NCBI GenBank assembly: GCA_036172245.1
Contig: JAYWIR010000106.1
Span: forward strand, 1-64,000
Source of the DNA: Raillietiella orientalis
Taxonomy: Eukaryota
Direction of reading: 5' to 3'
DNA: 64,000 bases
Shown: positions 1 to 24,840 of the stretch, in pieces
Position numbering within the stretch: position 1 is the first letter of the stretch
How the letters are laid out: the number at the start of each line of letters is the position of its first letter
Notes under the pieces: generated by a model
Databases searched by the model: none
The model's input: the letters and a program-made list of their open reading frames with translations, nothing else
What the model was told of the DNA's origin: nothing
Program-made: the position numbers and the translations under genes

Positions 1-3000
1 CGGCTACCCCTGGCCTGGCTGGAACATCCGGTTATTAAGGATAGGATGAGAGCTCTCATCATGGCCACGATCATCAACTCGCTCTCAGATTGGGATTCCT
101 TCAAGAGGACATTACAACGGTTGTGCGAAGACCAACCAACGCAGAATCTCCCAATAGGTTTCGGGGAAGAGGATACTCTACCCTCCAACTATTGGCAAGC
201 TAGGGATGTCAGACACCGTATGGATCCCAGGAAGTTCGCCGAGTACCGAGCCAAGGTAGAGCGACAATCCTGGCAATCAGGAGTCACCACTCTGCTGGAC
301 GGGAACGGCAGGATCCTATCAGCAGCGAACGAGATCAAGGATGAAGTAAAACGGTTCTACTCCGCTTTATACTCCAGATCGACGCCTCAATACGGAATCT
401 TGCAGTTGCTCCTCCCCGAGGAACATCCTGTGATAGGGAACGAGGAGCAGTCAAGGCTCAATGAGCCATTTACAACAGATGAAATCCACAGGGCCCTAAC
501 AACCCTGAAACTAAGGAAGGCTCCAGGAGAGGACGGTCTTCCCGGGGGGTTTTACAAAACTTTTGCGGAAGAGCTGTCGCCCCTGGTAAAACAACTAGAT
601 ACAGTAATGCGAGCCACCGGCGATGCACCCGATTCCTTTCGCTCCTCCAAGGTGAGACTTTTGCCGAAGGGGGGGACCTCCGTAGCTTGAATAGCTGGCG
701 TCCGATCACGCTCGTGAACACGGACGTCAAGCTATTCTCAAAGCTGTGGGTGACAAGATTGAGATCGGTGGCGGACCGAATTATCTGCCCGGAACAAAGT
801 TTTGCGGTACCCAGGGATGTATGGAGTCCAACCTGATCCAAGCCCAGTCGTGGTTCCACCTGCAACAATGGATGCAAAAAAGAAGAGCCGCACTAGCAAC
901 AAGCCTCCTCCAGCACGAGGAAATGGAGGGGGGTCTGGCGATAGCAGTAGACTTTCAAAAAGCCTTCGACTGCATCGACCCGGACCTACTGCTCCACTTA
1001 ATTGAAAGACTGGGACTCCCTCCCGCCCTATTCGAATACTTGCGCGCGACCTGGCGCAGAGCGATAACTAACATCTTTTTCAGTGGACGCTTTTTGCACG
1101 GAGTTCCGGTAAGTAGAGGCATCAGACAAGGAGGCAGCCTTAGTCCCTTTCTGTTTGCCATATATTTCGAGCTGGTATTGAAGGCTTGTAAGATCGCAGT
1201 TGCGAACCTACCTTCCAAAATGCGCATGCGCTCCAATGCTATCGGCATAGGCCGACGACCTTCTTCTTCTGCTACCTGACTCCACCCCCGCGGCCAAGAT
1301 CGAACTATTATTCGATCTGATCCAGGAAGGGACGGGCCTGAGAGTCAACATCCATAAGTCTGTGGTGGTCCCTACGAACGCTGCGTGGGTCGGACGCTCG
1401 GACTGGCAAAGCTTAGGTATCCAGATGTGCAAGCATATGGAATACCTAGGCATCCCGCTGGGGGCTTCTCGAAAGAGAAGGTCTGGTCCGAACGCCTCCG
1501 TCGTTCCGAAAAGGCGCTGGCTCCGTTCAGAGGCGGCAAATTCCTGCTACTGGAATGAGCCTTCATCTACAACACCTATGTCGCCCTTATTCTACGCCCG
1601 GTCCTATTTTCCTGCCCTCCCACCAAGAAAGGCAAACGGCGCGAAGACCGGAATATCAGAAAACTTCTATGGGGAGAAGGCCGGACCAGGGTGCGCCCTA
1701 AAGACGCGTGTGACCGGAGAGATTGGGCCGGCCTGAGCATAAAAACGCTCAGAACTCAGCAGGTGGAAACTCTTTTCCGCACCCTACTTTTCCTCCACGT
1801 TCACTGGAAGGACCATTGGTGTAATCCAATCAAAAATCCTCTTGTCCGTGCGACGGGCACTCGGGGACTCGCATCATTGTCGACGGTCGCAACCCCCCGG
1901 GGAATCGGCTACCTTTTGTCCCAGGTAATACAACTCATCCTAAGGTGCAATTGGATGTCCTGTAAACACGGAAATTTCTTGGCCTGGCGGCAGGAATCCC
2001 TGAAAACATGGATCCACCTGCATGGCAATCCACCAAGCGCATCGACACTCCCGGTATTCATGAGCAAGAGACCTTTGAAAGACCTCATGAAATTTCCGGA
2101 AAGAATTCCTCGGTGGCTGAAGGCACCGCTAAACACCTTCTGGACAGAGCTGAGAACCAATAGAGACAGTGACCAGCAGCCGAAATGGGAAATATCCTGC
2201 CGGATGGGGGATCTAGTCGTCCCACTCCTATCTCTGAAAGCCGCAAAACTAGCGACCAAAGCAACAGCAGGACATATGGCACAAGGCCTCAAACGTTGAG
2301 TCTGACTTCTAGGTATCCTCTTGACCGAGCTCTACATACCGCAGAGGTGCACAGACAGCACCCTATCCCTTGCGACGAGAAACCATACATTTCTACTTCT
2401 GAATTTGGGGCTTCAAAGCAACGCGAGAAAATTTCACAAAAGCGTCGGAAATATTCCCCCGCACAGCAAATACTGCGGTGTGAAGGAAACCCTGACCCAC
2501 CTGCTCATGGACTGCCCGTCTAAACGACCCCAGTGGAATCGTCTACGGCAGGCAATTGGTCTTCCAAATGAAGAGCCGAAACAATTAATGCGCAGATTTT
2601 TCTTACGCAACTGCCTCTCGGATGCAACGGTGCTGACAATTCTGTGCTTTCTCCACGGCATCACGAAGGCGAGAACTCAACTGGAGTTACACCAACGGAG
2701 AATCTCTGTATGGTGCATCGCAACCCCATAATTCCGAAACGCCCAGAACCGGAACTCTCTCCCAATCGCCACACGTAGATCTGGCGAACCTCTAACAATC
2801 CCTTAACATTAGGAGATCCGGTCTAGTCACAGCCCCCCCAAAAACCCCCTACATTTCCCCATTTTCAGCCCCCCCCACTTTCCCCCATACACCCCTCCAT
2901 ACCGGCCCCTCCACAACATATTTAGGGCTGCTTCCCCCCCCCCCAATTACTACTACTTCCAGATCCCAACTTTTCTACAAATTGTATGTTTATTTTCGTA

Positions 3001-3022
3001 ATAAACGCCCGGCGCAACCGGG
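1..3022 (+). mobile_element. L1/Tx1-like non-LTR retrotransposon, family 1: 3' part (decayed ORF2 RT, C-terminal zinc finger, C-rich 3'UTR)
   Basis: RT motifs are spread across frameshifted ORFs: KAPGEDG (46..690), then AVDFQKAFD and GIRQGGSLSPFLF (746..1279). YADD is mutated to tag-gcc-gac-gac at ~1248. YLG lies at ~1443 and CGVKETLTHLLMDCP in 2321..2731. A C-rich tract (2820-2945) is followed by AATAAA at 3000 and a small hairpin. Confidence 0.93.
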
Positions 3023-3158
3023 TAGAAACGAAGGGAGAGAACGCGGCGAGCGCACGTTTTCTTGCGGAGCTCCGTTTTCTCTTAACTTTTCGATATCGAC
3101 AGTGTAGAGTGCCGACTCGTTCTGACCACAACCACTGAAGTGGTGCACGCCTAGAACG

Positions 3159-4529
3159 ATGGATGCGGAATCCATCATGGCGTCCACCGAACCTACGCCG
3201 TCCGGTAGCGGACTGGCGGCTGCACCGCCCTCAGGAGCCGAGCGTTCCTGGAGTGATGTGGTGACGGCTTCAACCATCAAGGGCCCACCTCTGATGGAAG
3301 CCGAACTTGCCGCCTATATCCAAGAGGGGTAGAACCCCCTTATCATCTATAAGGTGAGACGGGAGGGTTCTAGACTAGCTGAACAGGAATTCTGTCGAGA
3401 GCTCACTCGTGTCGGTGTTCGCGAGGGTGACCTAAACGGGCTTTTGCCCATGAAAATTACAGGACCCTGGGGCGTCTTCTGCAAGGAAGTGTCGCTGGCG
3501 CAGCGCCTTTTGCAAACCGCGCTTTGCGTGAATGGCGCGAAAACGCTTCCCATCACGGAGGATCGTTCTTTAGTGGTGGAACTTAGTGCGATGCGTCCCG
3601 GCATCAGCGAGAGCAGCGTTAGGGAAGAACTCTCAAAATACGCTACCGTCTACGCGATGTGGCGTAAAAACCTGTCTAGCGACGGTTTCAGGAAGGTGTT
3701 CACGGGTATCCTTTCCACCCGTATCTCTACAACAGAGAAAGGAAGCCTCCCTTACTCGTTGCAGGTGGAGGGAACCAGGGTAGACCTCCGGTTTGTTGAC
3801 AAACCTCAAGTGTGCGGGGTATGCCATCAGACGGGGCATCCTCAAACAAGATGCCCGTCTGTGCGTTGCTCAGGGTGCAACCAATTAAGCCACACTCGCT
3901 CATGGTGCCCCTGGCGAAAGATCAGAACCCCTGCCAAGGATGGCCTAAGGATGAAAAAGGGCGTAACGGAGATCACATCAGCCTCCGAATCATCAGCATC
4001 GCCGGTGGCTATGACCGGCCCTCTAACTACGGAGGAAATCGTCGAAGGGTGGAAGGTGGTTGCGCAAGCGAGCAAACCGCCACACCCCACATCCTCCGGA
4101 AAAAGCAGCCAGCGACACCACTCAGGAGGTGCTCACGTCACAGGACACGGACGGGATCGCCCGTCCCCTAGGGAATCACTTCAGGGCGCTGAAGCCCCGA
4201 ACACCGAGACGACCAGAAGACGTCTTGCCTCAGGGTGTCAGGAGGTAGTTCTGTCCGATTCGAATGCGGAAACCGAAATCTGCCAATCCTCGGACCAACA
4301 AAACATTGCCATTCTGGGCAGATATGGCAAGAGGCGGAAGTGCGAACCGCGTTGCAGCTCAGGAACCCGTGACCAGGTTAGGGCGCCCAGGTGTCTTCGG
4401 TGTCAACAAACGCCGAAGTTACCGCAACTCCTGAACAGCCAATCGCGGAAACCGCGAGCGGTAACGATAACGCGGACGCAGTGGCCGCCCCACACTAGTG
4501 GGAGGGTCCAGATAACACCAATCCCTTAA
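3159..4529 (+). pseudogene. LINE ORF1 (type B; gag-like, two CCHC knuckles) with one premature stop
   Basis: ATG at 3159 is in frame with ORF 3354..4529. A TAG at 3330 replaces the Y of EGYNP. It carries an SWSDV N-terminal motif and the knuckles CGVCHQTGHPQTRC and CSGCNQLSHTRSWC. Confidence 0.88.
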
Positions 4530-4737
4530 TCCTCGAGGCTGCTGGTCTAGAGACACGCAGTGGAACAAACGCCTGCAAGATCGCGGGACCCGTAGAGCTC
4601 GGAATGCAGGACGGAGAGATAGCATCCCCCGTTTGAGCTTCTAAGTGCGGAACAGGGCTAGACAACCCCACCCCGAGATCGCACGAACACACATCGCTCC
4701 CAACGGAAGTGAAGGAGATCCCCGTCTGCGATTCTGA

Positions 4738-5160
4738 CGACTCACACAGCAAGGCAGCGCCTTAATCTTCTGCTTCATGCGGGCAACCGTAGTAGCACAG
4801 GAAGAGCGGGGAAAAAGAAAAAGGTCATGGATCTTCTCACTATGTCTCCCGCTCGGGAAAGCGGCGGCAAACTTGAGGTTACTCAACCAAACAGACAAAC
4901 AAGAACTCCATGAATTTACACGTAGGCTTCGAACCTCCCGCTCCACGATGGCGTTCCAAATATCCCCCCTCCCTCCCTCCCACAGCAGGAAACCCGAACC
5001 CCCCCACAAAACCTCGATTCGTTCCCCACCCCGCTAGTCCCACGCACTTTAGCGGGACAACCAACCGCAATAAATACACGATGGACTTAGGACAAGTTTA
5101 CTGACAAACAACGAATGTGTGAGAACAAGTACAATAAACGTACCTGTGCACCCGTGTATT
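4738..5160 (+). mobile_element. LINE family-2-like ORF2 C-terminal tail plus 3'UTR
   Basis: LIFCFMRATVVAQEE...LGKAAANLRLLNQTDKQEL aligns with LICFIRAALTERE...LATAATKWCFLNQQEKKEL at ~21320-21450. A C-rich tract and AATAAACG at 5133 follow. Confidence 0.75.
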
Positions 5161-5280
5161 AATTCTCCCCCCCAAGGGCGCCGAGGAGGACGAACAAGAT
5201 CTACAGTACATCGATAGCAGCAGTTTCCTTTTAGTGAAGTGTGTGGAGGTTTGGAACCAGGTGGAGGTTCCCCCTCCGTA

Positions 5281-6120
5281 ATGGTGGATCCACCGAAGGA
5301 GGCCGCTTCTGCGGCTTTCGCAGTGGAGGCCGCAGTAGCGAAGACCTCAAGATCCTGGAGTGAAGTCGCGACGGCAGCGGAGGTCGTCGGACCCAAACCG
5401 GACGATGCTGAGGCTATGGCCTATATGGAGCAGGGCTACAACCCAACGCTCCTATACATGGTAGGCAAGGATTCTTCCGAAGCCATTTTTGGAGAATTTG
5501 CCGCGGAGTTCACGCGGGTCGGGGTGAAGGGAGAAGATCTCCTCTCATTGATGCCTCTGGGGAGGACGGGGATTTGGGAGGTACGCTGCAAACGCGCGCA
5601 ACTTTCCCACGCTCTTTTGAGGACCCCGGTGCGCATCAACGATAGGAGAATATTCCCTACCTCGGAGGATCGCTCGTTCGTGATCCAATTGCGAGGCGTG
5701 CCTGCAGAGGCAACGGACGCCGAATTAAGGGAAGCTCTAGGAGCACACGCAGATGTATTCGCTGTATGGCGTAAACCTAACGCGCAAAGCGGATACATCA
5801 ACGTGAATACCGGTATGGCATCGGCCAGAATCTCTGTCGTGGTCAAGAGCCGACTACCCGTTACGATCAATGTGAAAGGTGCCACGGTGCATACGTGGTT
5901 CATCGGGAAACCGAGAATATGCGGTTACTGCGGTGAAACAGGGCACCTAATGCGAAGATACCCAAAGATCAAGTGCCGAAGGTGCGGCACAGAGGGTCAC
6001 ATCGGTAGAGTGTGTACCCAAAAACAAAGTATGCCTAGACCGGCTATTAGGAGGCCGGTTATGGTAGAAGGAACTTCGAGAACCCGACATCTCTGGAGGA
6101 GGCCGCATCCGCGGCTGTAG
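5281..6120 (+). pseudogene. LINE ORF1 (type C), 3'-truncated copy
   Basis: Close paralog of 6123..7490. The first knuckle is damaged (CGYCGETGHLMRRY). The copy switches into a second copy at ~6097. Confidence 0.88.
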
Positions 6121-6122
6121 CA

Positions 6123-7490
6123 ATGGAGGCCGCAGTGGCGACAACTTCGAGATCCTGGAGCGACGTTGCGGCGGCAGCGAAGGTCGTGGGACCAAAGCCT
6201 GAGGATGCGGAGGCTCTAGCCTACATGGAGCAGGGATACAACCCAACGCTCCTATACAAGGTAGGAAAGGCCTCAGCCGAAAATGTTTTTGGAGAATTCG
6301 CCGCGGAGTTCGCGCGAGTTGGTGTAAGTGGGGATGATCTTCTCTCCTTGATGCCTCTGGGGTGGACGGGCATGTGGGAGGTACGCTGCAAACGCGCGCA
6401 GCTCTCGCACGCTCTCCTAAGGACTCCGGTTCGCATCAATGGGAGGAGAATGTTCCCGGTTTCGGAGGATCGTTCCTTCGTAATACAGTTGCGAGGTGTG
6501 CCAGCGGAGGCGAACGACGCTGACATACGCGAGGGATTAGGAAGGAACGTTGAGGTATTCGCTGTGTGGCGCAAACCCAATGCGCAAAGCGGATACCTTA
6601 ACGTGAATACGGGCATGGCGGCGGCCAGAATATCTGTTGAGGCCAAAACGCAATTGCCCGTTACGATTTCTGTGAAAGGTGCTACGGTGCACACGTGGTT
6701 TCTCGGGAAACCAAGAATATGCGGTTTCTGCGGCGAGACGGGACACCTAATGCGAAGGTGCCCGAAGATCAAGTGCCGAAGGTGCGGCACAGAGGGCCAC
6801 ATAGGTAGAGTGTGTCCTCAAAAACAGCGTAGGTCTAGGCAGACTACTAGGATGCCGGCCAAGGAAGAAAGAACTTTGAGAACCCAACATCTCGATGAAT
6901 CCCCTCAGGTCGAGGCCGGGGATAAAGACGGTTGGGTTCTCGTGAGGAGGAAGGAAAGGCCGGAGAAGGCCCGAACGGTGGCACCAATAACTGGCAAGAA
7001 GGTAATAAAGGCGAAACCCCAGAAGGTAAGGCCCAATACCGGAAGCCAGTTGGTGCAGAAGACAAGCACATTCCCTGTTAAGGAGGCAGAGGAAGAGTTC
7101 AAGGAACAGCCCGCGAGCACGCCAGAGAGCGTGCCGAAGGACTCAGAGGCTATGGAGGTCCAGGAGGACAAGAAAAGGCCCGAGCCCGTGGTTGCAGAAG
7201 CAGAGCCTTCAAGGGTCGCTATCTTCATTGCCCCCAAGAAGATCACGCGCAAAGGGCGCGCTCAACTGGAGGACTCCGATGTTGAGTCTGAATGCAGCTC
7301 GAAGGAGGATTCCTTCAGAGTGACAGGCAGGCAGCCTAAGGCACGCAAGTGCCAGGGTGAGGAACCCGATACCATGGAAATACCATCAACCTCAAATAAT
7401 TGTGAGGAGATGGAGACCATGTCCGGGTCAACGCCCCAGGAGGGGTTGTTAATTGAAGAATTTTCAACCCCAACCCAGATGGATTGCTAG
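6123..7490 (+). CDS. LINE family 2 ORF1 (type C; two CCHC zinc knuckles, charged tail)
   Basis: Open 455-aa ORF containing CGFCGETGHLMRRC and CRRCGTEGHIGRVC, directly upstream of ORF2. Confidence 0.9.
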   Translation: MEAAVATTSRSWSDVAAAAKVVGPKPEDAEALAYMEQGYNPTLLYKVGKASAENVFGEFAAEFARVGVSGDDLLSLMPLGWTGMWEVRCKRAQLSHALLRTPVRINGRRMFPVSEDRSFVIQLRGVPAEANDADIREGLGRNVEVFAVWRKPNAQSGYLNVNTGMAAARISVEAKTQLPVTISVKGATVHTWFLGKPRICGFCGETGHLMRRCPKIKCRRCGTEGHIGRVCPQKQRRSRQTTRMPAKEERTLRTQHLDESPQVEAGDKDGWVLVRRKERPEKARTVAPITGKKVIKAKPQKVRPNTGSQLVQKTSTFPVKEAEEEFKEQPASTPESVPKDSEAMEVQEDKKRPEPVVAEAEPSRVAIFIAPKKITRKGRAQLEDSDVESECSSKEDSFRVTGRQPKARKCQGEEPDTMEIPSTSNNCEEMETMSGSTPQEGLLIEEFSTPTQMDC

Positions 7491-7495
7491 CCTCC

Positions 7496-10400
7496 ATGCG
7501 GAAACTCGAGATAGCTGTGTGGAATGTCAACGGGCTATCCGAGCAACGCAAGAGGCTAGCAATCGCGAAGACCCTAGAATCTTTCGACCTCGTACTTCTC
7601 CAGGAGGTACATCTGGTATCACACGAGATAGCACGGGATGTCGAAAGGATTACTGGGTCTGAAATGTTTTGGAGGAGCGGTGCCCTCCACACGAGAGGAG
7701 TGGCATTTCTCCTGAAGCCTAGGGTAAAGCGAACCCTGATAAGCATGCGCTTCGACGACAGGGGCAGAATTGGACAATTAACTCTAAAATGGTCACGAAA
7801 CATAGACCTCAGGGTTACCAATATCTATGCCCCTAGCAGCAACACACCAGTTCCTGAAAGGATCGCGTTTCTGCGAGACCTGAAGGAGAACTGGTGGTCG
7901 AATTGTAACGCCACCACGGCCCAACTAGTCGCGGGGGACTTCAACCTTCCACTCGCGCAAAATAGCAGGAAAGGAGGCCCGCTTTGTGCACACTGGCGCG
8001 ACGCGCTGGCCAGCATACACACAAAGAACGTATTGGACTGCAGTGTGGAGAACTCCAAGGCAATTGACCATGCCTTCCTCGACGAGCACCTGCATGGGCG
8101 GGTCAACAGGAGAGGTAGGATACGGTCAATATTATCCGACCACCCTAGGCTGGAGCTGGAGACTCTACCCAGGAACAAAGGCCCTGGGTTAGACATCTGG
8201 AGGATGCCAAGCGGTTGGTGGAGGACCAGGGATGTCAAAGAACACATGAAAGACTTCCTGAGCTCCCAACGAATTACGAAAACAGATGACTGGGATATAC
8301 TCAAGGAAGGCATACGCGACTTATGCTGCAGGTTCCCTCGGTCCGAGCTCCCTAGGGGCTTTGGCGAGGAAGAAATAAGACCCGTATACCACTCCTGCTT
8401 GGGACAGGTATACTGGCGGCCAAATATGCAGGAGCTCTCCCTGTACAAAGCGCACAAAGAACGTCAGGCGCTTCAGAGGAGTGCATGCACACTCTTGAAC
8501 CATCAGGGAGAGGCAAGGAAAAATCCCCAAGACATCATTGGGATCGTCCGCCGCTACTACACGGCGCTATACAGCGAACGGGAGATAGACTGGCAAAGAG
8601 CACAGTCTTTAATAGAGGGGGAGGTAGCGAAGCTCGATCCGGAGAGCGAGCATACACTGAGCACCCTGTTCACCCCAGCCGAGATTCTGGAGGGAATAAA
8701 ATCCCTCAAAAAGAGGAAAGCGCCCGGCGAAGATGGAATCCCGGCGGAATTTTACCGCTGTTATGCCGTGGAACTAGAACCTCTCATATCCCAACTTGCA
8801 AAATGCATGTGGGATACAGGGAAGGTTCCAACATCTTTTCGCTCTTCCAGGATGAGACTGATCCCGAAGTCGGGAGATCTCAGGTCTCTAGCAAACTGGC
8901 GCCCCATCACCTTGGTGAATGGGGACGCCAAACTATTTTCCAAGTTGTGGGCCAACAGGCTCAGAAGGCTGGCAAGCACCCTGGTAAACAGCCAACAAAC
9001 ATACGCGGTACCTGGTAGGAGCATGGATCTCAACCTGATCCAGGCATACTCCTGGTACGCTGCAAGGGGTTCGCAGGGTCATATCGCTGTGGCGGTAGAC
9101 TTCGCGAAGGCCTTTGACTCCGTCAACCAGAAGGTGCTTTTAGCGCTTCTGGAACGCATGCGCGCACCATCGGCGCTTCTGGCGTTTCTGCGCGGCTGCT
9201 GGCGGGGAGCGCAAGTCAACATCTTATACGGCAGCAGAACGATCTACGGAGTTCCAGTGAGGAGGGGCATCAGGCAGGGGGATAGCCTCAGTCCTCTCCT
9301 ATTCAGCTTATACTCCAATTTGATCGTGAATACCTGCAAGTCTAAATTGTGAAGTGACCCCTCCAGGGTGGGTCCCACATCCCCAGGGATATCGGCCTAC
9401 GCCGATGATCTACTTTTGCTCCTTGATCCCGCAACCCCCCCATCGGCACTGCAACATCTGTACAAAGAGTTGCACCGTGGAACGGGACTTCAAGTGAACG
9501 AAAGCAAAACTTTAGTACTGATCAAATCGCCGACTGCTCAGCAGACGGAAACCTGGACATAAGCCGGTATGAAGATTACCTCCCGTTTACAATACCTGGG
9601 TGCTCCGATAGGCAGTATTAATCAGGTACAAGAATGGAGAAAGGTGCATAGCACAATAGAGAACTCCCTGGCCACGCTAGAAGATCTTGAACTCCTTCTC
9701 CCGGAGCGTGTGGCAGCATGGAATTCATTCCACGCTCCTAAAATGAGAGCACTTCTATTCGTTTGTCCCATTCCCAAGGGGATGCGCAAACTCTTCAGAG
9801 CTGCAATGCGCAAGGCCCTTTGGGGAAACGGGCGATCTCGAATCAGGTTGAAAGACCTGGGAACATCGAAAGTCAAAGCGGGACTCGATCTCATTACACC
9901 GGAGATACTGAGCACCCAAATTTCATTAAGAATGCTGGAACTCGCCGCAGAACAGTGGGAGGAGCACTGGTTTCAATATGCGAGAGAAATGCTGCAGTCT
10001 GCATGCGGTAGCACCAATCTGGCGTGCTTGGCCGCACCAGGAACATCAAGCAGACTTTTAAGCCCTCTAAAGGAGATGTCCGCCCTGCTGACAAAACATC
10101 CGCAATGAAAATGCAGGCAGCAGAACTATCAAGCGCTACGGACGCTTACAATTGAATATTGGCTTCGCCTCAACGGAGAGGAAGAACAGTCACTACGTCA
10201 AAGGCTTCACCGCCTAAGAAAGATGACAGTCGCGCAGGTGGAGGAATCCTCGAGAGCTAGACTCAGATGGTCGGGTTCCCTGCTTGCCCAAGAGTGCTAC
10301 ACTCTAAAACATCGATGCGACTCTGCTTTACCTGCAAGGTGGTCCGTCACAACAAATACGGGCGGATCCAATCTTTCCACGCGACGCTGCAGGTCGTACC

Positions 10401-16410: not shown

Positions 16411-16414
16411 CGGC

Positions 16415-16590: not shown

Positions 16591-17620
16591 TGCCTGCAGC
16601 GCACAGTTGCATCCGCGGTATTTTGGCGGTTTGGAGTGGATCCAACGAAGTAGAGGATGCAAACGAAAGGAGTATGCAGCTCGCATTCTGCGAATAGCAA
16701 CCCGATCGCCCCACTTGGGAAACAAGCAGAACCTCGTCGGCATCCTGCAAAAGATGGAGACTCTACAAAGCGGACAGTAATCCCTTCCCGACCCTCCAAA
16801 TAACCATGGTTTTTTTTTCAGTTTTCTTTCATTTTTATTTTTCCCACCCTATCTGCTAACGTGGAGTGTCAAGTCGGTCTGCGCACCGACCACCCGGCAG
16901 TTCCCTAGTGCTATTGGCTGCAACGGGGCCTTGTACAGCAAATACAGAATGTTTTAATAAACGCCCCGGCTTGAACGGGTGAAAAAGTCGGCGGTAGGCA
17001 ACGAATCCTGTCGGAGGACGAAATCGCCGGGAGATGAAATCGCGCACGAGCAAGCATAAGCTACTGCAAGCGACATTAACCAAAAGTAAAAACCTACTGT
17101 GCCCTGTTAAGGATGGAATCGCAACCCAGGACCTGGATGGATTTATACGTTCCCTGGGAAACAAACATTTCTGGGCACATAAGCCGAGACTCAATGGCCA
17201 GACCACCAGAAGGCGTCGCGCCTCAGGGTCACATGAGATGACCCTGTCCGATTCGGACGAGAACGAAATCCGATCCAAATCGGAGAATAAAAATATAACT
17301 ATTCTAGGCAGACAACGCAAGAGTCGCAAACGCAAACTGCGATGTGACTCGGGAGCACTGGACTGCGAAAGAGAGATGTCCTGTGGATCACGGAACAGCT
17401 CTCTTCTATAGCTCCGTCGGTCGTTCTCCGCATTGAAATTCCCGAGGTTACGTCGACTCGACGAGCAAAAGACGCGGACGCGCAAGCGGTTCAGGAGTCA
17501 GCGTCTGCGAACGCTATCGCAACTCAACTCGCGAAGGCAGAAAACGCCGCAAACAACACCGACGTTGTAGCGGCGCCACACATCATGGACGACGCAGGGG
17601 CTGCGGCCGCGCAGTAGTCT
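16590..17620 (+). mobile_element. LINE fragments: a probable 3' end (AATAAACG plus hairpin at 16956) and an ORF1 type-B C-terminal piece
   Basis: 17200-17370 (TRRRRASGSHEMTLSDSDENEI...ILGR) matches 4205-4370. The terminal motif resembles the one at 3000. Confidence 0.6.
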
Positions 17621-17631
17621 GCGTTAGAGTC

Positions 17632-18513
17632 TGGTTAAGAGAAAAATTTTCTTATGCAATACTAGCAAAAGAAATTGGTATTCAAGGAACCAAACATATT
17701 CAAGGATACTTTCAACTAATAGATCCAACAACACCAAAACTAAAAAAAGTAATGGAATTCAGACGAGCAAACATAGAATCAAGCAGAGGAACTCCAAAAC
17801 AAGCTGCAGATTACTGCACGAAAAAAGACAAAGAACCTTGGATATATGGACTACTACAAACAGAAATTAAAATCTACAAACAGGTACAAAAAATTAATTA
17901 CATATAAAAAACATATTTCCAGGCACAAGATTGGATACACAATGGAAAAATTGAGAAATGGATATGGAAAGAAAAGCCTGATATATACGACAAACATGGA
18001 CAATTCATAAACGACACCATTCGATTCACAAAATCCTCTAATCAACATCCAATGGAAACAAAGACTTTACAATGGCAAAAGAATTTAATTGACATCATTT
18101 CCACTGAACCCAACGATAGACATCCACTGGTTCACCGATTACCAGGGCAATTCAGCAAGACAACAATTGCAAAACACATATATATAAAGTATGATGCTCT
18201 TTACTTAAAGAACTGCAAAAAAGCTGATGCCACTTATATGTACACTGGACAGAAGATAGTTATCATAGACCTCACAGAAGATGTACAAGAGATGATAAAT
18301 TATGGATTGATAGAAACCATAAAAAATGGCATACTATACTCAACAAAATATCAAGTTAAATGTTCTCAATTCCACGACAGCATTTTCGCAAACATGGATC
18401 CTAATTATGAAAAAATTAGTTCTGATAGATGCATAGTTCATTTCATCAATGAGAGAAATAAACAGACTACAAATCGTATCATAATATGTATTCTCCAGAA
18501 GGTTAATATTTAA
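17632..18513 (+). pseudogene. rep: Divergent AT-rich CRESS Rep relic with a 39-nt intron (17884-17922)
   Basis: KHIQGYFQL (motif II), DYCTK (motif III), degenerate Walker A, IVIIDLT, GILYSTKY, FAN. The intron contains an in-frame TAA. Confidence 0.88.
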
Positions 18514-18658
18514 TATCTCTGGCTCCTTTAAATTGAAAATGAAATTTTCTCCAAATTCGAAACATTGGTGCATCTTTGTTAATCACTTGCACTTTCTTAA
18601 TAGTTTTCTCTTGCGAACACTCAGTTGGTACCTTGTATCCAACAACGTATTTAGCAAA
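18503..18658 (-). pseudogene. cap: Capsid C-terminal fragment convergent with the 17.6-kb Rep
   Basis: KYVVGYKVP...PMFRIWRKFHFQFKGARDIKY* compared with KHMSGVDIP...PIYRLTRTFYVEFKHLRDPPLYT*. Confidence 0.72.
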
Positions 18659-19109
18659 GTTGGGATGCCCGACCCGTACAATCGGCCGACGATGGAACGA
18701 TGCTGTTTCCGTACGTTTTTAATCATCTTGATTCCCGACTTTGGGGACTGGTCATCGGGGCATGCGCGCCCAGCTACCAGGTCGGACCAATAGCACAATG
18801 GTCGGTCGCGACAATGGCAAGGCTGACCGTGCTAGGCGGACCCATGTGGGTGATGATCGTGCTCACCAATGTATCCACCCGCGTACGATCAGACACATGG
18901 CGAATGGGGTGCAGAAGGCAGGGCGTGGATATCCCAGTATGGAACGGAGCCGTCGCATTACGAGAGGCTGGCATTGATGCCAACGTTCTTGGAATGGTTT
19001 GGCATACCGGTTGCCAATCCGTGGGTTTCACGTGACCTCGGTGTGGCGTGGAACCTGCTGGCTAAGCGTACCAGGCTGGGCATTCGTGGGAGCCGGATGA
19101 ATGCCCTGG

Positions 19110-21857
19110 CCAGCGAACCGCGCGAGATAGACTGTCAAAAGGCACAGTCACTTATAGAGGGGGAGGAAGCCAAGCTCGACCCAGAGGGCGAGCTAGCACT
19201 GAGCTCACAGTTCACCCCAGCGGAAATTAGGGAGCGAATTAAATCCCTCAAAAACAGAGCACCGGCAGAGGATGGAATTCTGGCGGAATTCTACAGCTGC
19301 TTCGCCGCGCAATTAGAACCGCTCATATCCCAACTTGCTAAATGCACGCGGGATACAGGTAAGGTTCCAACATCCTTTCGCTCGGCCAGGATGAGATTGA
19401 TCCCGAAGTCGGGAGATCTCAGGTCTTTAGCAAACTGGCGCCCCATCACCTTGGTGAATGGGGACGCCAAACTGTTTTCAAAAATATGGACCAACAGATT
19501 AAGGAGGATGGCGGACACTCTGGTGAACAGGCAGCAAACTTATGCCGTACCAGGTAGAAGCATGGATCTTAACTTGATCCTAGCCTACTTCTCGTATCAA
19601 GCACGAGGCGCGCCAGTTCCATTGCTGTGTCCGTGAACTTTGCGAAAGCCTTTGACTGCGTTAATCAAGAGCTGCTACTTGTGCTACTGAGTCGCATGCG
19701 TGCACCATCGGCGCTCTTAGCATTTCTCCGCAGTTGTTGGCGAGGCACTCAGGTCAACATCACTTATGAAAGCAGCACGATCTACGGAGCTCCGGTGAGG
19801 AGGGGCATCAGGCAGGGGGATAGCCTGAGCCCGCTCCTGTTCAGTATCTACTTCAACTTGATCGTGAAGACCTGCAGAAATGTGCTATCCAAAGACACCC
19901 CCAGGGAGGGTCCCTTTTCGCCCGGGATTTCGGCGTACGCCGACGACCTATTGTTGTTCCTTGACCTCTCGACACCCCCATCGACACTTCCGCAAATCTA
20001 CAAAGAGCTGCGCAGTGGAACGGGACTACAAGTGAACGAAGACAAGACAGTGGTCGTGATGCCTTCGCCGAACGACCACCAAAAACAATCTGGGAAGACG
20101 CTCACATAGCAACATCGGACAGGTTTAAATACCTAGGTGCACCGATAGGAAACATTAACTCGAAAGAAGAATGGGAGAGGATCCACCGCAGAACTCAGGA
20201 ATCCCTGGCTACGTTGGAGGACCACAACCTCCTTCCGGAACGGGTTGCAGTATGGAATTCATTCCACGCACCGAAAATGAGAGCACTGCTATTCGTGTGC
20301 CCCATACCCAGGGAGATGCGCAAACTCTTTAGAGCTGCAATGCGCAAGGCCCTATGGGGAAGTAGGCGCTCGAAAATAAGACTCAAAGACCTTGTAACAC
20401 CAAAAAAAAAGGCGGGGTTCGATCTCATAACTCCGGAGATACTGAGCACCCAAATAACAATCAGGAAGCTGGAGCTCGCGGCGGAACAGTGGGAGGAGCA
20501 CTGGTTCCGATAAGCAAGGGAAATGCTGCAGTCTGCATGCGGAAGCACCAATATAGCGTGCTTGGCCGCACCAGCAACATCTAGAAGACTCCGAAGTCCT
20601 CTCAGGGAAATGTCTAACCTGCTAAAAAAATATCCGCAAATAAGGTGCAGGCAGGAGAACTACCAGGCGCTGCGGACGCTCACAGTTAAATACTGGATCC
20701 ACCTGAACGATGAAGAACCGTCTCAACGTCATAGGCCATATCGCCTAAGAACGAAGACAGTCGCGCGGGTGGAAGAATCCCCGAGCTAGACTCAGGTGGA
20801 CGGGGTCCCTTCTTGCACAAGAGTGCTATACTCTAAAGCAACGGTGCGACTCTGCATTACCTGCCAAGTGGTCCGTCACGATAAACAGAGGCAGGATCAC
20901 GCTCATCACACGACGGTGCAGATCATACCCGCTAGCAGCAGAAATTCTACTAACGAAAATCACGGAGGGATTCAAGAGATGGACAAGAATACTCAACGTG
21001 CCCCCAATGTCATTGCCACCCCAACAATGTTCCATGAGGACAGAGGGGTACCTCTGAAGGCCCAGCACACGCTAGGGCTCATCATACATGGGGCAGTTCC
21101 CAGGAACTCCCAACTACATCATTTTAACCCGCGCGTCAACAGCGCGAATTGCAGTAGGTGTGGAAATAAAGAAACCTTGGAACACCTGCTGCTGGACTGC
21201 GAAGCGCTGCAACGGGGATGGAAACAGGTTGCAGAGGCAATGTTTATGCCTCAGGATACTGCGAGGGACCTACTCCTGAAGTTCTTCAGTCCCGACAGGC
21301 TCACGAAGCCGAGCAGCACTTTGATCTGCTTCATCCGGGCCGCGCTGACAGAGCGGGAGGAAAAGGTTACGGCCCCCCTCCTGATATGTCGCACACTTGC
21401 AACAGCGGCGACAAAGTGGTGTTTTCTCAACCAACAAGAGAAAAAGGAACTTGTTTCCATAAACAGGCTTCGAGCCACCCCGGCTCACCTAATCGCGGGG
21501 GATTTTAACCTCTCACTCGCGCGGAATAGGCAGAAGGGCGGCCCACTGTGCGCACAATGGCGCGATACGCTAGCAGCGATACACACAGTGAACCTTCTGC
21601 ATCCAGCTCATGATGATTCCAAAGCAATCGACCATGCCTCCCTCGATGAGCTCCTGCAAGGGCGGCTCAACGAAAGGGGTAGGATAGGCTCAATACTGTC
21701 TGATCACCCTAGACTAGAGCTGAAGATTCTGCCCAGGAATAAAGGTCCCGAGCTGAAAATGTGGAGGATGTCAGGCGACTGGATGAGGTCAAGGGAAGCC
21801 AGGAACTTGCTGAGGAGCTTCCTACGTTGGCGATCTCTAGATATAATAGAGGATTGA
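19110..21857 (+). mobile_element. Second, decayed LINE family 2 ORF2 (RT to C-terminus), followed in frame by an APE fragment
   Basis: Colinear with 8570-10900 (WRPITL, QGDSLSP, YADD, CSRCGNKETLEH). From ~21480 it reads HLIAGDFN...SDH, which is APE sequence. Confidence 0.92.
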
Positions 21858-22446
21858 GACCGAAGTCCACGCTCAATCTGGAAACAATACTATAGTTGTT
21901 CTGGGCAGGCAGCCCAAGAGTCGAAAGCGGGAACTGCGATGCGACTCGTGAGCACTTGATGGGGTGAGCAAAATGCCCCGTAGATCACGGGAGAACTCGA
22001 TCTCTAGAGATGCCTCACTCGTTCACCCCGAATACAGGTATGAGTGGACCCCGATCTCGCTCCCTGGAGACGTGGACGCACTGGAGGCTTCAGAACCAAC
22101 GAAAAAACAGCAGTCGCAAATTGAAAAGGTGGAAATGACATATCCTTCGAAGCACGAGATGGGCATGGAGGCCTTAGTAGATACGCCTTTCGCCGCTTCG
22201 AAAAGGATCCCGAGCAAGGCACGTGCGAGCTAGGAGACTCTGATGCAGTTGAACTGTTGCTCTGCGGACGAAACCGTGAGGGTGAGTGGCACACAGTCGA
22301 AGGCGCGGAGGTGCAAAGGGGCTCATCCCGAGGCCTGGAAGACCCATGCTGTGTCGGGCATTCACGAGTCGATGGTACTCGCGTCGAAGTCAACGTCCCG
22401 CGAAGGGGCACATTGAAATTCCAATTCGATAATAGAAACAGAACGC

Positions 22447-22870
22447 TAGCCTCCATGCGAAGACTCAAGATGGCCTTTGGAATCTAAACGGGCCTTGAAG
22501 ATGCAGCAAGCTAGGGATCGCTTCTACCCAGGCCCCTTTTGATCTCGTTCTCCTACATGAGGTACGTCAAGTATCTCACGAAATGGCGAGCCAGATCGAC
22601 AGTCAGGTACTCAAATATTCCGGAGGAGCGGCTTCCCATACACTCGAGGAGTCGCCTTCCTTATTAAACCAAAAGTCGCGCGCGCTAAAAAGCATGCGCT
22701 CTGATGATCCGGGTAGCTTAGGTCAACTCACCCTACGATGGTTGAACAGCATGGAACTCGTGGTGACCAACATATGTCCCAACATAGAACAAAAGCGTGC
22801 GAGAACGCAATTGCTTTTTCCGAGAGCTAGACCGAGAGTGGATCAATGCTCGCGGACTGCACACAGCGCA
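22447..22870 (+). pseudogene. Degraded LINE ORF1/ORF2 junction and APE N-terminus
   Basis: tagcctccatgcg is identical to 7488-7500. The downstream sequence is colinear with 7496-7930. Confidence 0.75.
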
Positions 22871-22879
22871 CCTGGTGGC

Positions 22880-23740
22880 ACAGCGAAAAATATGGGACTA
22901 CCTCCAAAGGTATCACTGCAAAGGGTGTCACTGTCCATCTCCGACGACAGGCTACGATGTTTTGCATTTGACAGTGCTTACTTGGAACCAGCAATAGAAA
23001 GTTAGAAATAGAAAGTCCGGAAAGCATGAAATTTTACTGCTCCAAACTCGACCCATAACCATGGGTTTGAGGATCCGTCGACAATGAAACGGATAATTCA
23101 TACGAAACAAAGGTACTATTCCTCTACACACTTAATCTAATTCCAGCAGTTACAACTGATCAAAGCTGGCTACAACGAAAAGTACTTGCCAGAACACCAT
23201 ATCAGATTCTACTATAGAATGAATACAAAAAGGAATGCTTTTGTCAAAACTGACACTAGACACCTATGAACGGACTACAGCTGAGGGAAGGGCAACTAAC
23301 CATACTAAACATCTTCGAAAAACATGAATCCAAGAAATACAATCTGGATTAAAGACGAGAACGGATACGACGACTAGACTGCCTTCCCGAAATGGCTTTT
23401 CCTGAAGAAATCGGCATTTACCTACAATCATGCAAGAAAAGCAGACGCTGCCCATCTTTTTAACAGGGAAAAAATCAGTTTGATTGATCTCACCAGGGAC
23501 AAAAACCCGTATTGCACGAGTTCTTACTCGTGCAATACGGGTTCATTGAATCATCGAAAATGGCTATAAAATAGGAATCCATAAAATACTTGGCCACTGC
23601 ATAGGTCTTCTTTGTGAAGGTCAACTGATCACCAGACTACTTTGAACAAAGCATCCACTGATGACAGTTTATCACTATTGATGATCCCTCCACAAAAGAC
23701 CAACTTCACTAAGGATAAAGAAGGAAACAACACCTTTTGT
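22880..23740 (+). pseudogene. rep: Heavily decayed CRESS Rep relic with a 34-nt intron (23113-23146)
   Basis: DSAYLEPA, FYCSK, QLQLIKAG, KADAAH, LIDLTRD and VQYGFIE are recognisable despite stops and frameshifts. Confidence 0.8.
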
Positions 23741-24200: not shown

Positions 24201-24227
24201 CAGAAGATGCGAACACTTTCAGGAGTG

Positions 24228-24415
24228 CTTCCCAACCCCTCATGTATTCGTAATGCAAATTCGCCGCACCACTACTCGAAACTCAACGTCCACTGATGGG
24301 AGTTGAATACCATCGTCTACGCCAAAAAAAAAAAAAAAACCAACTTCATCATGGATGACGATGGAAACATAGCACCTTTTTTTAAAGGAAGACAAACAAT
24401 AAAATTCATTACAAT
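24228..24415 (+). pseudogene. rep: Another Rep C-terminal fragment
   Basis: FPTPHVFV/ANSPHHYSKLNVH*W...MDDDGNIAPF followed by AATAAA, compared with FEPPHIVVFSNWEPDYSKMSSDRW...MIDDSGLVLPW. Confidence 0.6.
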
Positions 24416-24454
24416 GTTTTCATGGGTTTTCGCTTTCATAGATCTTAAAGATAG

Positions 24455-24840
24455 CCCGCGTTTGATACCTGCTTCATCAAGAAGGCTTCGTAGCCCTGAA
24501 GGAACTACCAAACCAAAAAACATTAAGACAACACACCTACTGAAAGAAATGGCAAAAATACTGCAGTTGCACCGCGAACTGTGCAGCAAACCAGCAAACT
24601 ACGGAGCGTAGAGCACGTGGTTTCAGTGAAGTTTTGGATTCAGAACACTAACGAAGAGTGCCGGACCCCAACAAAGACACTTGCCGGCATAAAGGAGCTC
24701 ACCATCGAACAAGAGGGAACATCCCTCAGGGGATATCTCAGATGGGCAGTCACTCAAGTGGATAAAGAATTCAAAAATCAAAAAACAGGGCACACTCCCA
24801 TGAACCTGTCAGGTCGACAGTAATGTGGCTCGAAGGAACA
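24455..24840 (+). mobile_element. LINE ORF2 post-RT fragment
   Basis: PASSRRLRSP...LKEMAKIL...NYGA...VKFWIQ compared with PATSRRLRSPLREMSNLL...NYQA...VKYWIH at 20570-20700. Confidence 0.6.

What the first reader, a model, noticed from the sequence alone, without database searches (positions are those of the whole stretch)
1..24840. Strand-polarised archive of LINE and ssDNA-virus fragments: candidate small-RNA memory (trap) locus
Seen: about a dozen LINE pieces and six Rep pieces are joined end to end over ~25 kb with almost no host DNA between them. All LINE ORFs and all Reps are on +. Joints fall in mid-ORF, and I found no poly(A) tails or target-site duplications. Established: uni-strand piRNA clusters (Drosophila flamenco; mosquito EVE clusters) are co-oriented TE and virus fragment arrays, but the well-known cases are mostly LTR elements with RNA-virus pieces. 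Inference: this locus repeatedly captures LINEs and CRESS viruses and may template antisense small RNAs against ORF1, ORF2 and Rep. If the host is a nematode lineage without PIWI, it would be a piRNA-independent equivalent.
Basis: partly seen in the sequence, partly recalled or inferred. Interest (0 to 1): 0.88.

Follow-up and report, generated by a model that had tools for sequence, protein, structure and literature searches.

The report
LINE pile-up holding integrated CRESS viruses
A 25-kb stack of same-direction LINE retrotransposon copies in an unidentified animal genome has taken in at least four different small circular DNA viruses, one nearly whole; it is a good place to test the idea of a small-RNA "virus memory" locus, but nothing in the sequence shows that it works as one.

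Summary
The observation largely holds. In window 1-24840, 39 of 39 tblastn rows for LINE ORF1/ORF2 and Rep lie on +. About 64% of the block is L1-like LINE, 23% is CRESS-DNA virus and 14% is unassigned. Two capsid genes lie on the minus strand, next to an origin stem-loop carrying TAGTATTAC. One insert is 1.6 units of a 2406-nt genome, sitting cleanly inside a LINE ORF1. Retained 46-nt and 39-nt Rep introns, the origin, a TATA box and the antisense Cap show that the virus entered as DNA, not as retro-copied mRNA. At least four virus lineages are present. Two share a capsid (91-99% nt) but have very different Rep helicase parts (62-77% nt, omega 0.07). The LINE copies differ from each other under purifying selection (omega 0.15-0.27). 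They are therefore separate insertions, not local duplications. Half of the LINE-LINE joints (4 of 8) are tail-to-head or tail-to-internal, the known signature of repeated insertion at one site, which forces co-orientation. Rep co-orientation rests on only 4-5 events (p about 0.03-0.06). Small-RNA production could not be tested because no genome and no sequencing runs were available. Verdict: a real LINE nest with repeated virus capture; the small-RNA "archive" function remains open (about 0.3).

The parts
1..3100 (+). P1: LINE-A, ORF2 from about residue 249 to the zf-RVT C-terminus, then the 3' UTR. Cut by the window start. About 5 frame breaks.
   Evidence: Pfam RVT_1; tblastn rows on +; ORF list
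3100..4529 (+). P2: LINE-A' 5' UTR and the whole ORF1 (open frame 3333-4526, CCHC knuckles). It joins the P1 tail head-to-tail with no poly(A). No ORF2 follows.
4530..5296 (.). Unassigned 767 nt, possibly the 5' UTR of P3 (the ORF1 ATG lies near 5281).
   Evidence: no Pfam hit; only a 67-nt match to 21385-21451; translation
5297..6093 (+). P3: LINE-B-like ORF1 fragment (start to about residue 297), cut at its 3' side.
   Evidence: 81% nt to 6097-6893; omega 0.156, dS 0.70 against P4, so a separate copy and not a local duplication
6097..10835 (+). P4: near full-length LINE-B. ORF1 frame 6051-7487 (CCHC). ORF2 7457-10770 (APE endonuclease, RT, zf-RVT) with 3-4 frame breaks. Short 3' UTR, no poly(A).
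   Evidence: Pfam; best solved relative is human L1 ORF2p, E 2.8e-48
10878..11919 (+). P5 and the start of P6: LINE-A-like ORF2 C-terminus and 3' UTR, joined head-to-tail to the LINE-A'' 5' UTR and the first ~31 ORF1 codons. The joint is the same as at ~3100.
   Evidence: 65.5% nt over 1067 nt to 2421-3424, continuous across the joint
11920..15817 (.). Virus 1 insert: 1.6 units of a 2406-nt ambisense CRESS-DNA genome inside LINE-A'' ORF1. 13 nt of LINE are lost, there is 5 nt of filler, and there is no target-site duplication.
   Evidence: self-match 11926-13410 against 14332-15812; junctions
11926..12508 (+). Rep helicase half of lineage 1a. The frame is open and fused in frame to the LINE ORF1 start (frame 11489-12511).
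   Evidence: Pfam RNA_helicase; 78% aa to 1b; omega 0.07
12547..13467 (-). Cap of unit 1: complete, 307 codons, arginine-rich N-terminus.
   Evidence: Pfam Circo_capsid below cut-off (22 bits against 36.2); Atlas top clusters are Cressdnaviricota, score 0.96; no sequence homologue
13710..13747 (-). Origin stem-loop: 14-bp stem, and a loop with TAGTATTAC read on the minus (Cap) strand. A 31-nt repeat occurs twice at 13542-13572 and 13612-13642. A TATA-like box lies at 13764-13771.
   Evidence: DNA fold -13.2 kcal/mol, z -5.07, 0 of 200 shuffles as good
13828..14914 (+). Rep of lineage 1b: exon 1 13828-14166 (HUH nuclease), 46-nt intron 14167-14212, exon 2 14213-14914 (helicase). One in-frame TGA at 14279-14281.
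   Evidence: Pfam Viral_Rep 1.7e-14; circovirus Rep nuclease structures, E 5.7e-14; intron; collinear with the intron-less Rep of IMG/VR locus L004 and with virus 2
14949..15827 (-). Cap of unit 2. The frame is open; the N-terminal ~19 codons are cut off by the right junction.
   Evidence: 95% aa to unit 1; dS 0.146, omega 0.17
15818..16443 (+). LINE-A'' ORF1, residues 34 to about 254. It resumes directly after the virus 1 insert.
16414..16576 (+). Virus fragment k: Rep promoter region (TATA-like) and the first ~37 Rep codons, with one stop. It lies inside the same LINE ORF1. 16577-17192 is unassigned.
   Evidence: 57% aa to 1b; nt alignment to 13759-13932
17193..17625 (+). LINE-A'' ORF1, residues 290 to the end region.
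17630..18655 (+). Virus 2 (GC 32%): Rep from about residue 35 to the stop, with a 39-nt intron at 17884-17922, plus the last ~45 Cap codons on the minus strand (weak).
   Evidence: Pfam Viral_Rep and RNA_helicase; 43% aa to 1b; sequence; weak Cap tail, E 0.14; composition
19076..21362 (+). P7: LINE-B', 5'-truncated (ORF2 residue ~361 to the end) with an intact 3' end. 18656-19075 upstream is unassigned.
   Evidence: 79% nt to 8572-10835; omega 0.15-0.27
21474..21911 (+). P8: LINE ORF2 residues 152-318 (endonuclease). It is read in one open frame with the P7 C-terminus (frame 20790-21857).
21856..22880 (+). P9: LINE ORF1 C-terminus to ORF2 residue 159. Its order is permuted relative to P8.
22996..23568 (+). 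Virus 3: degenerate Rep fragment (motif III region to mid-helicase).
   Evidence: 44% aa to 1b over 56 residues
23569..24840 (.). Unassigned right edge, with virus-like composition skews and an A16 run at 24324-24339.

Best explanation
The block is a LINE landing site: a nest of L1-like, poly(A)-less LINE copies from at least two families (A and B). It was built by repeated target-primed insertion next to and into earlier copies. Because the target is strand-specific, successive insertions come out head-to-tail or tail-to-internal in one orientation. At least four lineages of circovirus-like (CRESS-DNA) virus were later joined into this nest as double-stranded DNA by non-homologous end joining. 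Three of these inserts lie in a single LINE ORF1. Virus 1 entered either as a mixed dimer of two co-infecting recombinants, or in two steps, with a circular genome recombining with an already integrated fragment through their shared Cap region.

Shown: the anatomy, the DNA-level origin of the virus pieces, the independent origin of the LINE copies, and the small amount of decay since virus 1 integrated.

Inferred: same-site insertion as the cause of LINE polarity; capture of virus DNA at breaks, possibly breaks made by the LINE endonuclease; and the view that Rep co-orientation (4-5 events) is chance or a weak bias rather than design.
For: LINE identity: EN, RT, zf-RVT and CCHC domains. ORF2 is closest to human L1 ORF2p among solved structures (E 2.8e-48).

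Independent insertions: pairwise omega is 0.15-0.27 in 6 of 6 LINE comparisons, including the apparent tandem duplication 5297-6093 against 6097-6893. Fisher p is 1e-13 to 1e-25 for the three comparisons tested.

Joint types: 4 of 8 LINE-LINE joints have an intact 3' end on the left partner (~3100, 10835, ~11350, 21362). Two are the same tail-to-head joint, aligned continuously over 1067 nt. This is the pattern that McGurk and Barbash 2018 (PMC5932611, passages read) report for most Drosophila non-LTR elements and attribute to double insertion.

Virus entered as DNA:
- ORF1 is collinear across the virus 1 insert, with 13 nt lost and no duplication.
- Unspliced introns of 46 and 39 nt are retained in two lineages. 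The exon join is confirmed by the intron-less Rep of L004.
- The origin stem-loop, intergenic repeats and TATA box are present, and fragment k includes the TATA region.
- Cap lies antisense.

Two lineages in virus 1: the Rep helicase part is 62-77% nt identical and Cap is 91-99%. RepC omega is 0.07 with dS saturated; Cap omega is 0.17 with dN 0.025 (Fisher p 3.6e-8). Most differences therefore arose in free viruses, and little decay followed integration.

No CpG depletion relative to the flanks (o/e 0.73-1.44 in the LINE pieces and virus 1, against 0.76-1.00 in the flanks).
Against: - Three virus inserts in one 1.3-kb ORF1, and five virus pieces within 12 kb, are far more clustered than random integration would give. 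The model needs a hot spot or a retention effect that I did not show.
- All 4-5 virus events have Rep in the LINE sense (p 0.03-0.06 by chance), which end joining does not predict.
- 4 of 8 LINE joints are internal-to-internal or have a 3'-truncated left partner. Simple double insertion does not produce these, so later deletions or 5' joins must be assumed.
- No target-site duplication could be identified at any LINE joint.
- The genome-wide frequency of co-oriented LINE neighbours is unknown (no genome).
- The explanation of origin says nothing about whether the block is now transcribed.
Confidence: 0.6

Rival explanations
1. Uni-strand small-RNA (piRNA-type) source locus. A long minus-strand precursor starts to the right of the block and is processed into small RNAs antisense to LINE ORF1/ORF2 and Rep. 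Insertions in this orientation are kept because they silence the matching LINE or virus. This concerns present function and is compatible with the origin given above.
For: - 39 of 39 LINE/Rep rows are on + in a block of at least 25 kb, while LINE-like hits outside the block are mixed (1 on +, 2 on minus).
- Five virus pieces from at least four lineages lie within 12 kb, all Rep-sense with the LINEs. The chance of that orientation is 0.03-0.06.
- Fragmentary, nested, mid-ORF joints.
- Virus-derived elements sit preferentially in piRNA clusters in arthropods, and 81.4% of those inside clusters give primary piRNAs (bioRxiv 10.1101/396382, passages read). In mosquitoes, core clusters are enriched for antisense virus elements and depend on read-through from upstream genes (bioRxiv 10.1101/2022.08.22.504762, abstract start only).
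- A cathepsin L gene lies on the minus strand 13.7 kb to the right.
Against: - No small-RNA or RNA data could be obtained.
- Only L1-like LINE families and CRESS viruses were recognised. I found no LTR elements or DNA transposons, whereas known trap clusters (recalled) hold many TE families.
- LINE polarity has a mechanical explanation.
- The viruses are ambisense. A minus-strand precursor is sense to Cap, and either orientation would give antisense RNA to one viral gene, so orientation is a weak predictor.
- The host and its small-RNA machinery are unknown.
- No promoter could be assessed.
Confidence: 0.3
2. One or a few giant chimeric cDNAs. During a target-primed insertion the LINE reverse transcriptase switched templates serially among LINE RNAs and viral Rep-sense transcripts. 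Every piece is then in RNA sense, with mid-ORF joints, no internal poly(A) and no duplications.
For: - All pieces are in one sense, and two joints are precise tail-to-head joints.
- The block has a single A16 run, near its right (3') edge.
- The P3/P4 joint is resolved to within 3 nt.
- End-to-end template jumping by LINE reverse transcriptases is known (recalled, not read here).
Against: - The virus pieces keep introns.
- They also keep non-transcribed or upstream regions: the origin, intergenic repeats and TATA box.
- Virus 1 is longer than one unit and built from two lineages.
- LINE ORF1 continues across the virus 1 insert with only 13 nt missing, as expected for insertion into existing DNA.
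- Frame damage differs between pieces: about 5 breaks in P1, 3-4 in P4, and 1 in 3.3 kb of virus 1 coding sequence. This argues for different ages.
Confidence: 0.05
3. Assembly artefact: repeats and episomal virus reads were wrongly joined into one contig.
For: The region is repeat-rich, and I could not check read support.
Against: - The virus 1 insert is flanked on both sides by collinear parts of one LINE ORF1 that differ from every other copy in the window (57-78% aa).
- The two virus units differ from each other, so this is not a collapsed or expanded repeat.
- All copies are diverged (65-87% nt), which assemblers resolve easily.
Confidence: 0.05

Closest known systems
Uni-strand piRNA clusters (Drosophila flamenco; mosquito clusters rich in endogenous viral elements)
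   Same: Co-oriented, fragmentary, nested TE pieces together with virus-derived pieces, lying next to unique DNA. Virus elements inside clusters commonly give piRNAs (10.1101/396382).
   Different: Here the scaffold is LINE only and the viruses are ssDNA (CRESS) with ambisense genes. No small RNA, promoter or PIWI evidence is available. Features of flamenco are recalled, not read.
Endogenous circoviral elements: tandem full-length genomes in cyprinid fish, and Rep elements embedded in LINE-1 in carnivores (Dennis et al. 2019, PMC6372831, passages read)
   Same: Greater-than-unit-length tandem integration of a circovirus-like genome, and physical association with LINEs.
   Different: In carnivores the element is spread by LINE retrotransposition. 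Here the retained introns argue against any passage through RNA. Here the two tandem units belong to different lineages, several lineages share one locus, and the viruses are far from known ones (Rep N-terminus at most 43% identical to IMG/VR contigs; no Cap homologue).
[quoted passage not shown]
   Same: Intact 3' end joined to the 5' end, or to a 5'-truncated end, of the next copy. Neighbours are independent insertions in the same orientation.
   Different: No target-site duplication was recognised at the joints. Half of the joints are not of this type. Two different LINE families are interleaved.
Telomeric retrotransposon arrays (HeT-A/TART type; recalled)
   Same: Head-to-tail LINE stacks in one orientation.
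   Different: Those elements keep intact 3' ends. Here 4 of 8 left partners are 3'-truncated, no telomeric repeats were seen, and the position on the chromosome is unknown.

Membership tests
Uni-strand piRNA/small-RNA cluster | TE fragments predominantly in one orientation over tens of kb | tested here: met
   39 of 39 LINE/Rep tblastn rows on + in 1-24840
Uni-strand piRNA/small-RNA cluster | Abundant small RNAs from one strand, antisense to the TEs | not testable with these tools
   no sequencing run was listed; no genome held
Uni-strand piRNA/small-RNA cluster | Fragments of many different TE families (a general trap) | tested here: not met
   Only L1-like LINE families and CRESS virus were recognised. 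46 gap ORFs gave no family above cut-off. The host TE repertoire is unknown, so this weighs only lightly.
Uni-strand piRNA/small-RNA cluster | Host has a PIWI/piRNA or equivalent pathway, and a promoter drives a long precursor | not testable with these tools
   Host unidentified. The promoter scan offered is for bacterial promoters and was not used.
Endogenous CRESS-DNA (Cressdnaviricota) virus element | Rep with an HUH rolling-circle nuclease domain and an SF3 helicase domain | tested here: met
   Pfam Viral_Rep 1.7e-14 and RNA_helicase 5.9e-5; circovirus Rep nuclease structures, E 5.7e-14 to 1.7e-9
Endogenous CRESS-DNA (Cressdnaviricota) virus element | Origin stem-loop with a conserved nonanucleotide in the loop, between Rep and Cap | tested here: met
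   14-bp stem with TAGTATTAC in the loop at 13710-13747; z -5.07. The consensus is recalled.
Endogenous CRESS-DNA (Cressdnaviricota) virus element | Capsid protein with an arginine-rich N-terminus and jelly-roll fold | tested here: inconclusive
   Circo_capsid at 22-26.5 bits, below the 36.2 cut-off. Atlas features point to Cressdnaviricota clusters, score 0.96. No sequence homologue. The structure model was unusable, pLDDT 33.6.
Endogenous CRESS-DNA (Cressdnaviricota) virus element | Joined to host DNA on both sides | tested here: met
   Collinear LINE ORF1 on both flanks
Family Circoviridae (Circovirus/Cyclovirus) | Rep phylogeny and identity within the family; genome of about 1.7-2.1 kb (recalled) | tested here: not met
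   The unit is 2406 nt. Rep has only E 1e-9 to 1e-14 matches to circovirus Rep structures, and identity to IMG/VR contigs is at most 43%. No tree was built. I do not file it in this family.
L1-like APE-type LINE | ORF2 with an APE endonuclease followed by a reverse transcriptase; ORF1 nucleic-acid-binding protein | tested here: met
   Exo_endo_phos 5.8e-12, RVT_1 5.2e-18, zf-CCHC; human L1 ORF2p, E 2.8e-48
L1-like APE-type LINE | Poly(A) tail and target-site duplications | tested here: not met
   No A-run of 7 or more at the 3' ends near 3100, 10835, 11350 or 21362. No duplications recognised.
Non-LTR tandems by double insertion | Intact 3' end of one copy joined to the 5' end, or a 5'-truncated end, of an independent copy | tested here: met
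   4 of 8 joints. Neighbours diverged with omega 0.15-0.27.
Non-LTR tandems by double insertion | A copy of the target-site duplication inside the joint | tested here: inconclusive
   Element ends cannot be placed to the base with two diverged copies
Telomeric LINE array | Every element keeps its 3' end; only 5' truncation occurs | tested here: not met
   P2, P3, P6/P8 and P9 lack 3' parts

The most novel reading that the evidence does not exclude
The block is a working one-strand small-RNA source in a non-model animal. Its scaffold is made only of LINEs, and it archives DNA viruses: several lineages of an unknown CRESS-virus group, one integrated very recently. This would be a DNA-virus counterpart of the RNA-virus memory clusters of mosquitoes. 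A linked possibility is that breaks made by the LINE endonuclease at this landing site are what capture the virus DNA, so that LINE activity itself feeds the archive.
Probability: 0.3. Interest if true: 0.7.

Novelty: new member of a known kind. Interest (0 to 1): 0.45.

Why it matters
If the block proves to be a small-RNA source, it would extend heritable antiviral memory to ssDNA viruses and to LINE-built clusters outside arthropods. Even without that function the locus is useful in three ways. First, it preserves an almost undecayed genome of a CRESS-virus group whose capsid has no detectable relative among 1.8 billion representative proteins. It links that group to an animal host, because the 39-46-nt Rep introns match the 38-52-nt introns of the host's own gene. 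Second, it records natural recombination between two lineages that share a capsid. Third, it shows several DNA-level virus captures inside one LINE ORF1, which calls for a mechanistic explanation.

Tried and rejected
Steps that led nowhere:
- No whole genome is held for the window, so LINE orientation genome-wide and other copies of the junctions could not be examined.
- Sequencing runs: none was listed, so no reads were laid.
- Earlier findings of the scan: nothing by place, sequence or words.
- Cap homologues: none in the word-indexed search (1905 candidates, 0 scored) and none in the full HMMER search of 1.84 billion representatives.
- RepC: 0 relatives in IMG/VR with single-sequence patterns. 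The protein search gave one weak hit (E 4.7e-4).
- Cap structure from the single sequence: pLDDT 33.6. The model was unusable and was not sent to fold search.
- Rfam: 0 families at gathering score.
- Tandem Repeats Finder: 3 short rows and no telomere-like arrays.
- Pfam on 46 gap ORFs found nothing above cut-off. Pfam on 144 flank ORFs found only cathepsin propeptide and TAF9.
- Host identification: the best named cathepsin L hit is 77% identical (a nemertean), and the other hits come from mixed animal groups.

Readings considered and rejected:
(1) Local segmental or tandem duplication of LINE units. Rejected because all six LINE pairs differ with omega 0.15-0.27.
(2) A homodimer of one virus made by rolling-circle replication. 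Rejected because Rep is 62-77% identical between the units while Cap is 91-99%.
(3) Rep-mediated integration at the origin. Rejected because no virus end maps to the nonanucleotide.
(4) A retro-copy of spliced Rep mRNA. Rejected because the introns are retained.
(5) A telomeric array. Rejected because many pieces are 3'-truncated.
(6) A C. elegans-type 21U cluster. The motif occurs 3 times against 3.4 expected.
(7) A CpG-methylation footprint. None is seen.

Full report
**What is there**

The window has no N and a GC content of 36-57%. In 1-24840, stop-to-stop frames on the + strand carry two sets of Pfam families (15 of 37 ORFs scanned):
- LINE families: RVT_1, Exo_endo_phos, zf-CCHC and zf-RVT.
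- CRESS-virus Rep families: Viral_Rep and RNA_helicase.

Two long minus-strand frames give sub-threshold Circo_capsid matches.

I used the window's own best frames as tblastn queries on both strands. 41 of 44 rows fall in the block. All 39 LINE/Rep rows are on +, and the 2 Cap rows are on minus. A second query set agrees, and it adds LINE-like hits outside the block on both strands.

By my map the block is about 64% LINE, 23% virus and 14% unassigned. Pfam on 46 frames from the unassigned gaps found nothing above cut-off.

**The LINEs**

ORF2 has an APE endonuclease, a reverse transcriptase and a zf-RVT domain. Its closest solved relative is human L1 ORF2p (E 2.8e-48), ahead of R2 (4.5e-23). 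ORF1 has CCHC knuckles.

I distinguish nine pieces, P1 to P9 (see the parts list), from at least two families, A and B. No A-run of 7 or more sits at any 3' end. The only poly(A)-like run in the block is A16 at 24324-24339.

The self-comparison gives 7 matches at 65-87% identity, all direct. I first read these as local duplications. Nei-Gojobori counts reject that reading. All six LINE pairs have omega 0.15-0.27 with dS 0.37-0.96, including the apparent tandem 5297-6093 against 6097-6893 (Fisher p down to 1e-25 for the three pairs tested). The copies diverged as working elements and arrived separately.

Of the 8 joints between the nine pieces, 4 have an intact 3' end on the left partner:
- Two are tail-to-head (~3100 and ~11350). 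These two align with each other continuously across the joint, 65.5% over 1067 nt.
- Two are tail-to-internal (10835 and 21362).

McGurk and Barbash 2018 (PMC5932611, passages read) describe this pattern for most Drosophila non-LTR elements. They attribute it to repeated insertion at one site, which forces one orientation. The other four joints are internal-to-internal and need later deletion or 5' end joining.

**The viruses**

Virus 1 occupies 11920-15817 and is 1.6 units of a 2406-nt genome. It contains:
- the Rep helicase half of lineage 1a (+);
- a complete 307-codon Cap (minus);
- an intergenic region with two 31-nt repeats and a 14-bp stem-loop, whose loop reads TAGTATTAC on the Cap strand (z -5.07, with 0 of 200 shuffles as stable);
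- a TATA-like box;
- Rep of lineage 1b (+);
- a second Cap (minus), cut at its N-terminus by the junction.

The nonanucleotide pattern has 6 matches in the window against 3.2 expected. I examined only the match in the stem-loop.

Rep exon 1 matches solved circovirus Rep nuclease domains (E 5.7e-14).

Rep 1b is interrupted by a 46-nt GT..AG intron (14167-14212) and has one in-frame TGA. Removing the intron makes it collinear with the Rep of virus 2 and with the intron-less Rep of IMG/VR locus L004. In that comparison exon 2 matched in 5 of 29 loci and Cap in 0 of 29.

Cap has no sequence relative. Its language-model features are nearest to Cressdnaviricota clusters, score 0.96, in which 14-49% of members carry Circo_capsid. 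That is a lead, not proof. The structure model was unusable.

With a two-sequence Rep alignment, 29 IMG/VR loci encode relatives at 32-43% identity, mostly on 2.0-2.7-kb contigs. This is a divergent circovirus-like group, and I do not place it in Circoviridae.

**How virus 1 got in**

The LINE ORF1 on the left ends at 11919. On the right it resumes at 15818. These positions correspond to 3424 and 3438 of the uninterrupted copy. So 13 nt were lost, there are 5 nt of filler, and there is no duplication. The virus ends lie in mid-Rep and at the Cap N-terminus, not at the origin. This is end joining of double-stranded DNA into an existing LINE.

The two units are not copies of one genome. The Rep helicase part is 62-77% identical per 100 nt, and Cap is 91-99%. 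RepC has omega 0.07 with saturated dS. Cap has dS 0.146, dN 0.025 and omega 0.17 (p 3.6e-8). Nearly all differences therefore arose under selection in free viruses. Two recombinant lineages sharing a capsid are joined here, and decay since integration is small, bounded by dN 0.025 for the pair.

Either a mixed dimer integrated in one event, or a circular 1b genome recombined with an integrated 1a fragment through the shared Cap. I cannot tell these apart.

**Other virus pieces**

- Fragment k (16414-16576) carries the TATA-like region and the first ~37 Rep codons (57% aa to 1b). It replaces about 35 codons of the same LINE ORF1.
- Virus 2 (17630-18655, GC 32% against 55-57% on either side) runs from Rep residue ~35 to the stop. 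It has a 39-nt intron at the homologous place, followed by a weak Cap tail on the minus strand (E 0.14). It is 43% identical to 1b.
- Virus 3 (22996-23568) is a degenerate Rep fragment.

Together these make at least four lineages (1a, 1b, 2 and 3), with k unassigned.

The retained introns, the TATA box and origin sequences, and the antisense Cap all argue against copies of spliced mRNA. They also argue against passage of the LINE-virus chimera through RNA.

**Host**

A cathepsin L gene lies on the minus strand at 38512-39891, with introns of about 38-52 nt. A TAF9 exon lies at 50765-51004.

The longest cathepsin exon is at most 77% identical to any of the 120 listed proteins. The named hits are arthropods, fishes, a nemertean, Hydra and others; none is a nematode. 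The host is an unidentified animal.

The viral introns are in the host's intron size class, which suggests that these viruses replicate in this kind of host (inference).

CpG observed/expected is 0.73-1.44 in the LINE pieces and virus 1, and 0.76-1.00 in the flanks. There is no methylation footprint.

**Weighing the readings**

LINE polarity is adequately explained by repeated insertion at one site. I could check this only within the window.

The virus pieces entered as DNA, so their orientation should be random. Four or five events all in the Rep-sense orientation have p = 0.06-0.03. That is suggestive but not decisive.

What remains unexplained is the clustering: five virus pieces in 12 kb, three of them in one 1.3-kb ORF1. 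A break-prone LINE landing site, retention in a protected or selected locus, or one complex repair event could each account for it.

Tandem circovirus genomes, and circovirus Rep elements embedded in LINE-1, are already described (PMC6372831). So is the enrichment of virus-derived elements in piRNA clusters (10.1101/396382). I therefore rate this a new member of a known kind with unusually informative anatomy.

My probabilities:
- 0.6 for a plain LINE nest with DNA-level virus capture.
- 0.3 that the block is also a one-strand small-RNA source.
- 0.05 for serial template switching.
- 0.05 for an assembly artefact.

**Limits**

No genome, reads or RNA data were available. LINE element ends could not be placed to the base.

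Noticed in passing
window 11489-12511 (+): One open frame of 340 codons fuses the LINE-A'' ORF1 start (about 95 residues from its ATG) in frame to the Rep helicase half of lineage 1a, with an intact Walker A motif. This is probably chance (a 1 in 3 frame match on a young insert), but it is a possible chimeric protein.
   Followed up: partly
window 20790-21857 (+): A 355-codon open frame reads through the joint at 21362, from the LINE-B' ORF2 C-terminus into an endonuclease fragment (residues 152-318) of another LINE.
   Followed up: partly
window 21474-22880: Two adjacent LINE pieces are circularly permuted: ORF2 residues 152-318 comes first, then ORF1 residue 313 to ORF2 residue 159. The breakpoint lies at ORF2 residues 152-159. 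This looks like the remnant of a tandem of an internal segment.
   Followed up: no
window 38512-39891 (-): Host cathepsin L gene (I29 propeptide and Peptidase_C1) with introns of about 38-52 nt. The integrated Rep genes carry introns of the same size class (39 and 46 nt), ending in TTTCAG or TTTCCAG.
   Followed up: partly
window 50765-51004 (+): Exon of a TAF9 (TFIID 31 kDa) homologue, Pfam E 5.1e-11.
   Followed up: no
window 55730-57127 (+); 61324-63998: A 465-codon open frame has a weak Helicase_C match (E 4.2e-4). Further LINE-like pieces lie in both orientations: ORF1-like on + at 61940-62379, and RT-like on minus at 61324-61452 and 63483-63998.
   Followed up: no
window 13542-13572 and 13612-13642: A 31-nt repeat occurs twice (84% identity, 70 nt apart) in the viral intergenic region upstream of the origin stem-loop. 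These are candidate Rep-binding iterons.
   Followed up: no
The block may extend further as unrecognisable old fragments. No Pfam family was found there.
   Followed up: partly
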